Under the pieces are notes generated by a model. It did no database searches, was not told the origin of the DNA, and worked only from the letters and a program-made list of their open reading frames with translations. The translations under genes and the position numbers were made by a program. A stretch of DNA of 64,000 nt from Nemertoderma westbladi (lineage: Eukaryota; Animalia; Xenacoelomorpha), in NCBI GenBank assembly GCA_032718475.1, contig JAUCBJ010009041.1:84124-148123 (forward strand), in the 5' to 3' direction. Positions 1,941 to 12,779 of this stretch are shown piece by piece. Position 1 is the stretch's first letter, and each line of letters opens with the position of its first letter.

Positions 1941-2876
1941 TAACAGGTTATAACTGTTATAGTAGGTCATGATTGCATCCAACAGTTATCCAACGGTTAT
2001 CCAACAGAGCAAGCGCCATTTTCATGGCCATGTTAGTTTTCGTGCTGTGCTCCCTTTCGCGCACCCATCTCCAGTACTTTTGTACTAAGATTTTCAATAG
2101 TTTTCATAATTCACTACAATTAATTTATTTGCGATATATAGCGGTTTTTTGGATGCTGAATGCGATTATAGAACTGCAATATGTATAAAAATATATTCGT
2201 GAAATTTTTTCGTAATTTTTAAAGTGTCATCTGGGGTACAAATAAAACAAGTACTGCAAATATGTTAGTCAAAAATCACGTCAAGAGCTTCAGTTCATTC
2301 AAATTTTGCCTCCTTCCTGTTGGTACATGACTTGAATTTGCACAACTCAATGCAATGATGTTGATGTTTGTTTTGTAGGCAGATACAGAGTGAGTACAAA
2401 ACAAAGACTCAACACCCAATTATAAAGAAAAATTCTGGAAACCCAGGAGGAGTTGAGTGAAACTACAGTATATATCGTAGCTTAAGTGTCATAAGAGACG
2501 AGGCCCTAAGTAGATTTTTGTTGGATTTTACTTTTTTATACAATTCCACACTTTAACACATATGCTCTATCAGCTGGTGAAGTTTTGAAAATTGTCTAAT
2601 GTTTATTCTAACTGATAGACGTACTTTAGATACATTGGACAACAATAAATAATATATTTTTTTTACCAGAATATCGTTTTATGATATTGAAATGAAGATG
2701 TATGATATACTATATGACGACATACGATGACATACGATGACATGAGTAGTAGAAGAAACATAGTTCTGAACGAACTCCTCCCTAGCTTGGGCTACGGCTC
2801 GCATCTCGGAGGCAATTAAAAAATGCCAAATTTCTGCGCTAAATCGAGGTGTTTAATGACCATCTGTCACCATCAA

Positions 2877-3045
2877 TATTGATTCGCGTCGTTGCCTTCA
2901 ACCCATCGTTGCTTATCACCTACGCGTAGCCTAACCTCGCGATGCCTGCCTTACTCGACAACTGTTACCACCCGTGAGTATTGATTCGCGTCGTTGCATC
3001 AACCAACCATCGCATATTCATCTTCGCGTAACCTAACTTCTCAAC
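2877..3045. repeat. ~100-bp direct repeat pair, possible subterminal repeats of the element
   Basis: tattgattcgcgtcgttgc...caacc..atcg...cgcgta.cctaac occurs at about 2878 and 2979. Confidence 0.6.
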
Positions 3046-3477
3046 GCATGGCTAGCCCCCACTACGCTATTATATTATATCGAATCGATTGCCAACTCAC
3101 CACCACCGCTACTCCTCGACGGCTGTCGCCAAACCAATCCAGTCCAACGCTATTATGATACGTGTTGAAATTCCGCCACGTTCCACCTACACGTATACGA
3201 ACATTTCCATAGTAGTTACTCAAGCTAACCGATCCCGTAGCATCTGTGCCATATTGAAAGGCTTCCACAGCTAACATTATACTGTACGTTTTTTATTATA
3301 ATAATTATTGATTATTACACACACAACCCTATGATTCATATTCTTTCACGTATTTCCTATCCACGCAATCAACCAGCCAGCTATTCATCCACGTTGCTCC
3401 CCATCTCTTTTCTTATTCGTTGATGATTATGACACGTACCATCTCTTCTTCGTTGACTATGCCACATCGCAAATTTT

Positions 3478-3517
3478 TATATATATAAGTGAATGTTTTT
3501 AATAAAATTCATCACTT
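3478..3517 (+). promoter_or_regulatory. TATA box plus Inr-like element upstream of the PC4-like ORF
   Basis: TATATAAG at 3482 and TCACTT at 3512, 30 nt apart. Confidence 0.4.
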
Positions 3518-3532
3518 GTAATCTTCTTCATG

Positions 3533-3832
3533 GTAATATATTGATACCATATCTAATTTTTTTGTTCTCACTCTGACATTGTGTTTTTTTCCTTAATAAT
3601 TTATACATTATCTTACTCGTTGTATATTCGTTGGTCGGAAAACGACACCTCATAAAATGATACTGATTCCAGCATTGGGTATCGCCTCAAAAACGAAAAT
3701 CTGAGCTACGTGTCTCGCTCAATCTTTGTTTTTGAGTCGATACCTAATGTCGAACTCAGCATCATTTTTCTAAGGCGTCGTCTTCCGACCAAACACAATT
3801 TTAGAGTGAGAACTATGGTGTCAATTTATTAC
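3533..3832. repeat. Long imperfect palindrome (hairpin MITE-like)
   Basis: 3631-3706 is about 80% identical to the reverse complement of 3717-3792, with a 10-nt loop tacgtgtctc. Outer arms gtaatatattgataccata..gttctcactctgacattgtgt pair with acacaattttagagtgagaactatggtgtcaatttattac. Confidence 0.8.
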
Positions 3833-3892
3833 AGCGATACGGTTTAAAATTTATCACTTGTAATATTTTTCGTATTTATTATTATTATTATT

Positions 3893-10844: not shown

Positions 10845-11015
10845 AAGGTATAGCCTAATACAGTAATAAATTTAGGGTTGTTGTTATTGTTATTGTTAGG
10901 CCTATCAGTTATTGTTGCTTATAAAACTTAGTAGACCGAATCTATTTTATATATAATTAAAAAAAAAAAAGCGAATACATAAATAAATTAACTATGTTTT
11001 ATATAGGCCTCCGTC

Positions 11016-11275
11016 AACATAGAGTGAATGTTAGTAACAGAGAATGTGGTGGATTTTATATAGGCTTAGTTAGGTATACTGCGGGCCACACCTATTGTAT
11101 CTGCGTGGAGCCATTATATGACTGGTTGAATGATGGGGTTCCTGACTAAAAGTTAACGGTATAGCATACAACATAAAGTGAATGTTGAAAGTTAGTAACA
11201 GAGAGTGTGAGGGGATTTTATAGGTCCAATAGCGCTACCGGTACCTAACTACACCTATTGTGTCTGTGAGGTAGT
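11016..11275. repeat. ~155-bp tandem duplication containing minus-strand TATA boxes
   Basis: aacata.agtgaatgtt..agtaacagaga.tgtg...ggattttata..gg...acacctattgt.tctg.g occurs at about 11016 and 11170. Confidence 0.6.
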
Positions 11276-11805
11276 CAGCTTTCAGTTGAGGAGTAGTCAT
11301 TAGGCCTATATGCCTAACTGAATGAAGGTGTACCTTACCTATCCGTAAACCATATTGAGTCAACATGCGAAAAAGGGCCCCGCATAAAGTTAACTATAGC
11401 TGTATAGGCTTACCTATGCAACAGTAGCACGCAGTAATGTAGATTAGACCAATTAAAGTTGTAAACAGAAAATTGGAAGCATTCAAGTGTAATAGCCTAA
11501 TCCTTAAATCAAAGAAACCAGCATGCTCTTGCACTATCCAAGTATACAGGTACAAGAGTGCTACCGTGCCGGTACCAGTAGGCCTATTGTTAGGTAGGCC
11601 TCCTCTAATGCTGTATTCACGAACCCACATGTCGACTTAATTTAATTTTATTATTAGTAAGTACAGTACCGGTAACGCTAAAGCTCTGTGGTTGCTGTCG
11701 GGGGCCATTCTGTCGTTCTACAGTTTAGCGTTGTTGGCATATGTAGTTAAACTCTGATACAACCGCCGGCTACCGGTAGGTGCAGGGTGTGTGTGAGGGT
11801 GTGGG

Positions 11806-11913
11806 GTGTGTGTGTGTGTGTGTGTGTGTGTGTGTGTGTGTGTGTGTGTGTGTGTGTGTGTGTGTGTGTGTGTGTGTGTGTGTGTGTGTGTGTGTGTGTG
11901 TGTGTGTGTGTGT
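11806..11913. repeat. (GT)n microsatellite, about 54 units
   Basis: Pure GT run. Confidence 0.97.
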
Positions 11914-12039
11914 AAACTTAAGTCCTACACCTTTAGTCAAACTGAGATATAAAAAATAGATTTTAATGTTTTTATTATTTTATTGACATTAAAACAATTA
12001 TATTATCCCATCACATTACATTACATGCTTAGAGTAAAC

Positions 12040-12636
12040 CTACAGTACATCTTCCACCGCAGTTATTTCTTTCTGTTTATCATCATCAGTCGCAGTTAAA
12101 CGCTTTCTCATGAAAAAGTGTAGAGCCTCATACCCGCCAACACGTTTTGCTGAGCAGTATCGCAGACAGTTATCCCTTATGTTTAAGTGGAACGCGCATT
12201 TACTTTCCATTGTAGTGAATCGGTCGTGAAATCGACAAGGTGTTAAATAATCGTGATATTGCTTATATATTCCCAATTTCTCCACCAAATTTGGCTCGAG
12301 AACATCGAGTTGGGAAACTAATATTGCCCGTTTCAGCAACCCAAATACATGAATATTTTTTTTATATTTTAAATGTCTCTTCATATATTTTTTAAAGTCA
12401 TCTTGAGAAATGTCCCCGTAGTCCCAGGGCAAGTGAGAAGTCATATCCCGTAAATTGTTTACGTGAGCTGCATCTAAAGCTGATAACTTAATATTAGACG
12501 GGCCTTTAATTAAAAACGTCTTTACATTAGTTTTGGTGTAATTAGAATCGTATATTGCAAATTCTTTAAATACTACCGTATACTCTTTATTGTCTATCTT
12601 ATAATATTGAAAATCAACAAAAATAATATTATCCAT
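12040..12636 (-). CDS. Maelstrom-like / DEDD (DnaQ)-fold nuclease-like protein of Polinton type, 198 aa
   Basis: IIFVDFQYY...VFKEFAI...SHLPWDYG...IHVFGLLK...CAFH...YCSAKRV has the E...CxxH...C (ECHC) layout and TH.LP-like motif of MAEL domains. It matches the VDxQGF..KELA..HGLxWxxG..YVKG pattern of Polinton accessory ORFs. Confidence 0.7.
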   Translation of the reverse strand: MDNIIFVDFQYYKIDNKEYTVVFKEFAIYDSNYTKTNVKTFLIKGPSNIKLSALDAAHVNNLRDMTSHLPWDYGDISQDDFKKYMKRHLKYKKNIHVFGLLKRAILVSQLDVLEPNLVEKLGIYKQYHDYLTPCRFHDRFTTMESKCAFHLNIRDNCLRYCSAKRVGGYEALHFFMRKRLTATDDDKQKEITAVEDVL

Positions 12637-12779
12637 TTTATCTGATAAACAAAAGTTAAATAATTAATTACAAAGTTTGTTGGTTTAATTTATAATAATT
12701 AACAAGCCATTTATATAATATAACTTCATTGATTTCTTTTTTTTAAATTTTTTTCAAATTTTTTATTTTTTTCGAATTC

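What the first reader, a model, noticed from the sequence alone, without database searches (positions are those of the whole stretch)
2745..12720. Polinton-like element with an apparent basal-transcription kit (TBP-like plus PC4-like) flanking its polymerase and no visible capsid or integrase
Seen: gene order PC4-like > pPolB > TBP-like > unknown, facing a MAEL/DEDD-like ORF. Known: canonical Polintons/Mavericks carry a retroviral-type integrase, A32/FtsK ATPase, adenain protease and jelly-roll capsids, and depend on host Pol II. TBP and PC4 are both general Pol II factors. Inference: this lineage supplies its own promoter-recognition and ssDNA/open-complex factors. It is either a truncated virus or a capsid-less linear replicon with this five-gene core.
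Basis: partly seen in the sequence, partly recalled or inferred. Interest (0 to 1): 0.85.

Follow-up and report, generated by a model that had tools for sequence, protein, structure and literature searches.

The report
Broken Polinton half with own TBP
This 10-kb stretch is likely the left half of a dead copy of an abundant virus-like transposon; it carries its own TATA-binding protein and a likely single-stranded-DNA-binding protein, and since complete relatives with capsid and integrase genes carry the same kinds of genes, it is likely an ordinary broken copy and not a new capsid-less replicon.

Summary
The five reading frames and both borders are real. Sequencing depth is flat and very high from about 2,745 to about 12,720 and collapses beyond. 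The polymerase is a protein-primed PolB with intact catalytic residues but one in-frame stop. The TBP-like gene is genuine but divergent. PC4-like is only weakly supported (fold-search ranks, not significant). MAEL-like was not confirmed. No integrase, ATPase, protease or capsid gene lies in the window, and there is no right terminal repeat, which a linear replicon would need. The closest polymerase clade contains integrase- and capsid-encoding Polintons that also carry TBP (2 of 2 near-complete loci). A 2024 preprint's supplement already labels TBP, PC4/MOSUB and Mael in adintoviruses, one with PolB next to TBP plus a full virion set. The PC4-fold protein more likely serves replication; the TBP likely drives late genes from family-specific boxes (seen in relatives). 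Extras: likely hundreds of copies, a spliced antisense RNA across the polymerase, and likely A-to-I hyper-editing opposite ORF5. Whether this host's family keeps capsid genes could not be tested.

The parts
2745..3500 (.). Left terminus (AGTAGT...) and non-coding subterminal region, with a 75-bp direct repeat (2877-2951 / 2979-3053); likely the left terminal inverted repeat, partner missing
   Evidence: Sequence; self-BLAST; depth rises from 2,423 to over 200,000 in X1 across this border; best reverse-complement match of the first 30 nt in the window has 11 mismatches. Inner end is an estimate.
3564..3813 (.). About 250-bp imperfect palindrome upstream of ORF1 (MITE-like or regulatory; function not tested)
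   Evidence: Inverted arms; 3625-3800 folds at -44.8 kcal/mol, z -9.2, 0 of 200 shuffles as good; depth dip and a 3611>4280 deletion variant.
3893..4960 (+). ORF1, 355 aa; predicted three beta4-alpha repeats plus a low-complexity tail; likely PC4/Pur/Whirly-fold ssDNA-binding protein
   Evidence: Secondary-structure pattern of a low-confidence model (pLDDT 35.6); residues 125-213 model pLDDT 56 with Foldseek ranks 1-3 YdbC and SP_0782, E 0.41-0.71; VIA-align best Z 5.5, Pur-alpha Z 4.3 at ranks 22-23; local match to the PC4-like ORF of L038, 17 of 2000 shuffles as good.
5144..9202 (+). [quoted passage not shown]
   Evidence: 1,590 relatives at E<=1e-20, 35-43% identity, 93 of the 120 listed carry PF02945; EndoVII 19.5 bits, below cut-off; all Exo I-III and Pol A-C acidic residues match 40 of 40 relatives, no indel at the stop.
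9150..9731 (+). Intact divergent TBP-like gene, 193 aa, overlapping the pPolB end; keeps F61, F136, F152 and N17, lacks the first Phe of repeat 1 as its family does
   Evidence: 263 family members; 35 PDB TBP sequences, best E 2.4e-28 for the family profile.
10422..10844 (+). ORF4, 140 aa, orphan; present in a minority of copies
   Evidence: No family hit; bin 10418-10760 depth 34,277 against 313,984 beside it in X1, 4,096 against 17,694 in X3.
12040..12636 (-). ORF5, 198 aa; resembles by eye the ORFs labelled Mael in adintoviruses; identity not confirmed by a tool
   Evidence: E 0.007 to L033 ORF; Mael-labelled sequences seen; negative scans.
12700..12725 (-). TATA box of ORF5 (12717) and right break of the high-depth unit; no terminal repeat
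   Evidence: depth 566,412 > 227,933 > 1,018 in X1 and 99,045 > 60,260 > 543 in X3 over three bins.
4869..6349 (-). Introns (4869-5207, 5350-6349, or 4869-6349) of a spliced antisense RNA across the ORF1 end and pPolB start; likely non-coding
   Evidence: Joints only in run X4, depth 97-206, absent in X1 and X3; GT...AG sites with pyrimidine tracts; longest ATG-open frame 37 aa over assumed exon ends.
11977..12426 (+). Clustered A>G changes in X4 contigs opposite ORF5; likely ADAR hyper-editing of antisense/read-through RNA
   Evidence: 62 A>G against 9 T>C places in X4; 14 against 14 in X1 and X3; p 2e-10. No DNA run of the X4 individual was laid.

Best explanation
The stretch is likely the left, replication-and-transcription half of a dead chromosomal copy of a high-copy Polinton/Maverick (adintovirus-type) family that carries its own TATA-binding protein. 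Shown: left AGTAGT end, a pPolB gene with one stop, an intact TBP-like gene, no right terminal repeat, and no integrase or virion gene in the window. Inferred for intact family members: pPolB copies the linear genome by protein priming and strand displacement; the PC4-fold ORF1 protein coats the displaced single strand; the divergent TBP brings host RNA polymerase II machinery to an element-specific TATA-like box in front of late (virion, integrase) genes, as herpesvirus TBP mimics do; the integrase and capsid half was lost from this copy by deletion or rearrangement just upstream of ORF5. The host likely meets the family with double-stranded RNA responses (spliced antisense RNA, A-to-I editing).
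For: pPolB falls in a clade (FastTree support 1.0) with L033 and L039; both carry TBP (Pfam 56.7 and 46.2 bits) with rve+chromo integrase and packaging ATPase, L039 also protease and capsid clusters in the order pPolB > two small ORFs > TBP > DEDD-like > virion genes. TBP of this subtype: 2 of 108 loci, both in the clade; 2 of 2 clade loci over 10 kb against 0 of 31 other loci over 10 kb. uAdinto10926 in the supplement of PMC11071296 lists PolB, TBP, NTPase, protein X, integrase, hexon and adenain, and its TBP resembles the window's by eye. No right TIR or TSD. Thousands of contig variants at 85-99% identity and a single element contig at 372 times the depth of a neighbouring host gene in X3. 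Non-canonical upstream hexamers in 3 of 3 testable clade loci (ATAAAC twice, TTAAGC) against 4 of 40 others, whose words are AT-only or TATA-like. PC4 genes without TBP in L026, L037, L038; nearest folds are ssDNA binders.
Against: No loose end at about 12,720 is listed among the best-supported rows, which a shared continuation might give (733 rows hidden, and rows at the T-rich 12733-12773 stretch are cut). The window's pPolB is on a long branch (1.0), its sister P0001 has no context, and clade locus L082 (8.9 kb) shows no TBP in the part held. The TBP profile was seeded with L033, L039 and the window protein, so it can miss other TBP subtypes. The PC4 fold call is not statistically significant; a small PC4 profile scored ORF1 no better than 95 of 1000 shuffles. 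The window has neither ATAAAC nor TTAAGC consistently upstream of its genes, and the motif control was not matched for intergenic AT content. Depth is not a copy number.
Confidence: 0.75

Rival explanations
1. The 10-kb unit is the family's real form: a capsid-less, integrase-less derivative amplified to hundreds of copies, moved in trans by a helper Polinton or by segmental duplication.
For: Depth plateau covers exactly 2,745 to about 12,720 in two DNA runs; no listed loose end at the right border; polB-less Polintons that stay mobile are reported (10.1101/2025.02.07.637071, passages).
Against: No right terminal repeat for an integrase or terminal protein to act on; the border falls a few bases from ORF5's TATA box; the same depth drop is expected for a truncated copy; relatives are complete.
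Confidence: 0.13
2. TBP and PC4 act together as an element-encoded basal transcription kit (promoter recognition plus open-complex stabilisation).
For: Both kinds of gene flank pPolB here; L039 has two small ORFs that look PC4-like by eye between pPolB and TBP (no Pfam PC4 hit); some adintoviruses add a TFIIB-labelled gene next to TBP; human PC4 is a transcription and replication cofactor (PMC7549692, passages).
Against: Pfam-detectable PC4 occurs in 3 loci, none with TBP, and neither TBP locus has a Pfam-detectable PC4; best fold matches are bacterial ssDNA binders; a strand-displacing pPolB needs an SSB (established for adenovirus and phi29, recalled).
Confidence: 0.15
3. The high depth reflects an actively replicating extrachromosomal virus or linear plasmid, the window holding one integrated fragment.
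For: Depth relative to the host gene differs more than ten-fold between X1 and X3; element RNA-like contigs exist in X4.
Against: Contigs spread over 85-99% identity (X1: 4,200 at 99+, 3,894 at 95-99, 3,583 at 90-95, 1,373 under 90), unlike a clonal replicon; neighbouring host repeats differ between the runs in the same direction.
Confidence: 0.07

Closest known systems
TBP-carrying adintoviruses of Buck et al. 2024 (PMC11071296, supplementary file 2; e.g. uAdinto10926, Adinto13673)
   Same: PolB next to a small divergent TBP; PC4/MOSUB and Mael genes labelled in the same collection (27, 35, 25 and 64 word hits in the stored, cut file).
   Different: Those records carry ATPase, integrase, hexon and adenain; this copy has none, and its PolB has a stop. 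The main text never mentions TBP, PC4 or Maelstrom, so the genes are labelled but not discussed.
Polintons/Mavericks with HNH-insert pPolB2 (Jeong et al. 2023, PMC10748475) and adintoviruses (Starrett et al. 2021, PMC8502044)
   Same: pPolB with HNH/EndoVII-like insert, AG-type terminus, animal host; Starrett's Fig. S2 labels MAEL and MOSUB, and the Fig. 5 legend lists TBP.
   Different: 10 kb against 13-25 kb; no integrase, ATPase, protease, capsids, right TIR or TSD in this copy. Placement against their reference sequences was not tested.
Beta/gamma-herpesvirus TBP mimics (KSHV ORF24, EBV BcRF1, HCMV UL87) and TATT late promoters
   Same: A virus-encoded TBP-fold protein for late-gene transcription by host Pol II (abstract starts only); functional analogy.
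   Different: Those are large proteins in a six-member complex; this is a bare 193-aa TBP core; no binding was tested.
PC4-like ssDNA-binding domains (YdbC, SP_0782, Pur-alpha, Whirly; PMC7549692)
   Same: Predicted beta4-alpha repeats; top Foldseek ranks.
   Different: No significant sequence or structure score; tandem repeats in one chain.

Membership tests
Polinton/Maverick (complete element) | [quoted passage not shown] | tested here: met
   gene carries one in-frame stop.
Polinton/Maverick (complete element) | Retrovirus-like (rve) integrase | tested here: not met
   0 tblastn and 0 profile hits in the 64-kb window from 41 locus integrases. Applies to this copy; hence filed as a defective remnant, not a complete member.
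Polinton/Maverick (complete element) | Packaging ATPase, protease, major and minor capsid genes | tested here: not met
   0 profile hits; 1 tblastn hit of 36 ATPase queries, a 22-aa P-loop match inside a host helicase gene at 57.6 kb. This copy only.
Polinton/Maverick (complete element) | Terminal inverted repeats at both ends | tested here: not met
   Left AGTAGT end present; no inverted partner in the window.
Polinton/Maverick (complete element) | 5-8 bp target-site duplication | tested here: inconclusive
   No right end to test against.
Polinton/Maverick (family in this host) | Full-length copies with integrase and virion genes elsewhere in the genome | not testable with these tools
Inferred from clade mates L033, L039, L082.
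TATA-binding protein family (PF00352) | Two TBP repeats with conserved saddle motifs | tested here: met
   three of four intercalating Phe positions kept (mapping to canonical TBP partly recalled); family-conserved P137, A138 and G161 positions differ in this copy.
TATA-binding protein family (PF00352) | Binds TATA-like DNA and TFIIB/TFIIA | not testable with these tools
   Needs binding assays.
PC4-like fold (PF02229 / Pur / Whirly) | beta4-alpha unit matching by profile or structure | tested here: inconclusive
   No Pfam hit; Foldseek ranks 1-3 PC4-like but E 0.4-0.7; VIA Z 4.3 for Pur-alpha.
Maelstrom / DEDD exonuclease fold | Profile or structure match; catalytic motif | tested here: inconclusive
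Linear protein-primed plasmid / capsid-less replicon | Identical origin repeats at both ends and an intact polymerase | tested here: not met

The most novel reading that the evidence does not exclude
In this animal the amplified unit truly ends at ORF5's promoter: a capsid-less, integrase-less satellite of a Polinton, kept at hundreds of copies, that supplies replication proteins and a private TBP in trans and is held in check by its own spliced antisense RNA and ADAR editing.
Probability: 0.1. Interest if true: 0.7.

Novelty: new member of a known kind. Interest (0 to 1): 0.3.

Why it matters
As it stands it is a defective remnant of a kind whose gene set is already labelled in a public supplement, so the architecture is not new. 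What has value: (1) TBP marks one pPolB clade here, and clade members show different upstream boxes, which makes a private late-promoter code in Polintons testable with one small protein; no paper discussing this was found in the searches. (2) A spliced antisense RNA and likely hyper-editing give a rare look at how a host handles a Polinton family. If the family proved capsid-less throughout, it would be a new satellite-like lifestyle for animal Polintons.

Tried and rejected
Single-sequence searches with the TBP-like protein found nothing (word index; phmmer over 1.84 billion representatives; PDB sequences); only profiles worked. Viral-contig scans with pPolB alone, TBP alignments and ORF5 gave no loci; the PC4 alignment returned only the contig already held. 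Atlas gave no usable hit for ORF1. The full-length ORF1 model (pLDDT 35.6) gave meaningless fold matches. hhalign and small PC4 profiles did not detect ORF1 (searches stopped on script errors). tblastn of a PC4 in phages: no match. Pfam TBP search by handles reached only 7 of 36 loci, 0 of 7 matched. No RNA holder was listed on record. Run X5 (organism B) holds element pieces at about 97% identity and depth about 5 but shows no cover over most of the neighbouring host gene; contamination and horizontal transfer cannot be told apart, so it is not used. TATA boxes upstream of window genes are common by chance in 70% AT DNA (18 on +, 13 on -) and are not used as evidence. Equal contig lengths between pPolB and TBP hit lists (P0100/P0163, P0110/P0173) hint at shared contigs but were not verified. 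Complex prediction was not used. bioRxiv supplements are closed and the two PMC supplement files were cut when stored, so further prior annotation may exist unseen.
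Full report
Observation. The window holds five frames between 2745 and 12720: ORF1 (3893-4960, 355 aa), a polymerase gene (5144-9202), a 193-aa ORF overlapping its end (9150-9731), ORF4 (10422-10844) and, on the other strand, ORF5 (12040-12636). The stretch opens with AGTAGT at 2745, a Polinton-type end (recalled). Flanking genes are host genes: a CytochromB561_N-domain gene at 14511-16265 (TMEM209-like, name recalled), a fatty-acid hydroxylase, an ankyrin protein and ZNFX1-like pieces. 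An animal host is inferred from these and from earlier notes on the same genome.

Borders and abundance. Four public runs were laid on 1500-11760 and 11920-15520. In X1 summed contig depth is 2,423 in the bin left of the element and 62,000-415,000 from 2872 to 11760, except the ORF4 bin (34,277); in X3 727 against 4,096-61,632. On the right it falls from 566,412 to 1,018 (X1) and from 99,045 to 543 (X3) across 12,646-12,766. The neighbouring host gene has depth 9.79 and 29.1. One element contig in X3 has depth 10,833, 372 times the host gene. The tool warns that depth is not copy number, and another host repeat at 1500-2185 is also deep, so I say only 'likely hundreds of copies'.

Polymerase. 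The C-terminal part finds 1,590 relatives at E<=1e-20; 93 of the 120 listed carry the EndoVII/HNH domain. The window's insert scores 19.5 bits, below cut-off. Read through with X, the gene is 1352 codons with one stop at codon 607, no indel beside it, and all exonuclease and polymerase acidic residues match 40 of 40 relatives. Jeong et al. (PMC10748475, passages) describe HNH-insert pPolB2 in nematode and oomycete Polintons; I did not place the window against their sequences.

TBP. Pfam TBP 26.7 bits over a cut-off of 22.9, NCBIfam TBP E 3e-4, Atlas 0.94. A three-sequence profile found 263 family members; a profile of 120 of them scores the window protein 44.7 bits; the family profile matches 35 PDB TBP sequences. 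Conserved F61, F136, F152, N17 and the Y-x-P-E motif are kept; three family-conserved positions differ. Single-sequence searches found nothing, so it is very divergent.

ORF1 and ORF5. ORF1 has no family hit. Its predicted secondary structure repeats four strands plus a helix three times (low confidence). A model of residues 125-213 (pLDDT 56) ranks YdbC and SP_0782 first to third among 350,542 chains at E 0.41-0.71, with WHY1 and PURA further down; these are PC4-like ssDNA binders (PMC7549692, passages). VIA-align gave nothing above Z 5.5, and small PC4 profiles did not separate ORF1 from shuffles. So PC4-like is likely but unproven. ORF5 has no tool-supported family; it matches a similar ORF of L033 at E 0.007 and looks by eye like Mael-labelled adintovirus proteins.

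Missing half. Profiles and tblastn from 41 integrases, 36 ATPases, 33 protease-cluster, 25 minor-capsid and 17 major-capsid proteins of related loci found nothing in the window but one 22-aa P-loop match in a host helicase (cluster names assigned by me and inspection). No inverted partner of the left end exists in the window. A protein-primed linear replicon needs the same origin at both ends (established knowledge), so this copy cannot be one. The right border lies at ORF5's TATA box.

Relatives. 108 loci with related pPolB were fetched (28 viral, 80 of 529 metagenomic). 84 had an ORF long enough for the tree; 24 were left out. The window falls in a clade of support 1.0 with 11 loci, on a long branch (FastTree, midpoint root). 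TBP of this subtype is in 2 of 108 loci, L033 and L039, both in the clade and the only clade loci over 10 kb; 0 of 31 other loci over 10 kb have it. The profile was seeded from these same proteins, so other TBP subtypes could be missed. Both loci have rve-chromo integrase and a packaging ATPase; L039 also has protease and capsid genes and the order pPolB, two small ORFs, TBP, DEDD-like ORF, virion genes. PC4 genes occur in L037 (53.9 bits), L026 and L038 (below cut-off), none with TBP; L026 and L038 have the full virion set.

Prior art. Starrett et al. 2021 (PMC8502044; passages, section 3.4, part 2 of 6 of the text, supplement search) list TBP in a figure legend and label MAEL and MOSUB on adintovirus maps; MoSub1 is a PC4 orthologue (abstract start). 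Buck et al. 2024 (PMC11071296; passages and supplement passages) do not mention these genes in the text, but file 2 has 27 TBP, 25 MOSUB, 35 PC4 and 64 Mael word hits, covering 22 distinct adintovirus records labelled TBP, a few doubtful by eye. uAdinto10926 lists PolB, TBP, NTPase, protein X, integrase, hexon and adenain. Mael-associated Polintons are also named in 10.1101/2025.02.07.637071 (passages). PMC11161782, PMC11662393 and 10.1101/697771 were seen as passages only and add little. Text searches for a paper that discusses Polinton TBP or PC4 found none.

What the TBP may do. Earlier AI notes on other genomes proposed family-specific late boxes; I tested this on my loci. The best upstream hexamer beat at least 29 of 30 random controls in 3 of 3 testable clade loci (ATAAAC in L033 and L082, TTAAGC in L039) and in 4 of 40 others, whose words are AT-only or TATA-like. 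The control is not matched for intergenic composition, L082 shows no TBP in the part held, and the window's own genes do not share these boxes; ORF1 and pPolB share an upstream 11-mer instead. This fits, without proving, a late-gene role like that of herpesvirus TBP mimics (abstract starts).

RNA. Run X4, guessed as DNA, behaves like RNA: one contig covers the host gene at depth 1,991 with little beside it. Only X4 shows joints 4866>5206, 4866>6348 and 5347>6348, which are GT-AG introns on the minus strand: a spliced antisense RNA with no long frame over assumed exon ends. Opposite ORF5, X4 shows 62 A>G against 9 T>C places, where X1 and X3 show 14 against 14 (p 2e-10), while over 1500-11760 it is 54 against 60. 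ADAR hyper-editing of double-stranded RNA from convergent transcription is the likely cause; DNA of that individual was not available.

Verdict. A defective remnant, likely the left half of a dead copy, of a TBP-carrying Polinton/adintovirus-type family. The copy itself fails the membership tests for a complete Polinton; family membership is inferred from its clade. The capsid-less reading is not excluded for the family, because no genome was held and the right border abuts a T-rich stretch where loose ends are dropped, but it is unlikely. Interest 0.3.

Noticed in passing
window 4869-6349 (minus strand): Spliced antisense RNA with alternative exon skipping across the pPolB start, seen only in run X4.
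   Followed up: partly
window 11977-12426: Clustered A>G changes in X4 contigs on the strand opposite ORF5, consistent with ADAR hyper-editing.
   Followed up: partly
window 3564-3813: About 250-bp palindrome (z -9.2) upstream of ORF1, flanked by a 27-bp direct repeat (3503-3529, 3845-3871); a 668-bp deletion variant removes most of it in some copies.
   Followed up: partly
window 3841 and 5018: The 11-mer GGTTTAAAATT occurs only twice in the element, 52 and 126 bases upstream of ORF1 and pPolB; possible shared early promoter element.
   Followed up: no
L033 and L082 (ATAAAC), L039 (TTAAGC), upstream of genes: Different non-canonical upstream boxes in three Polintons of the TBP clade; L033 and L039 TBPs also differ at likely DNA-contact positions.
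   Followed up: partly
P0001-P0120: 93 of 120 pPolB relatives carry the EndoVII/HNH insert, suggesting it is far more widespread than nematode and oomycete Polintons.
   Followed up: no
window 30302-32770 and 57177-60140 (minus strand): ZNFX1-like helicase gene in pieces about 24 kb apart, separated by very long tandem arrays (39-bp x 215, 63-bp x 40, 43-bp x 69) and a reverse-transcriptase fragment at 41700-42557.
   Followed up: no
run X5 on window 2872-12721: A run labelled as another organism holds element pieces at about 97% identity and low depth, with almost none of the neighbouring host gene: contamination or horizontal transfer.
   Followed up: no
L033:11783-12640 and 13727-14125: KilA-N and phospholipase A2-like genes in a TBP-carrying Polinton.
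   Followed up: no
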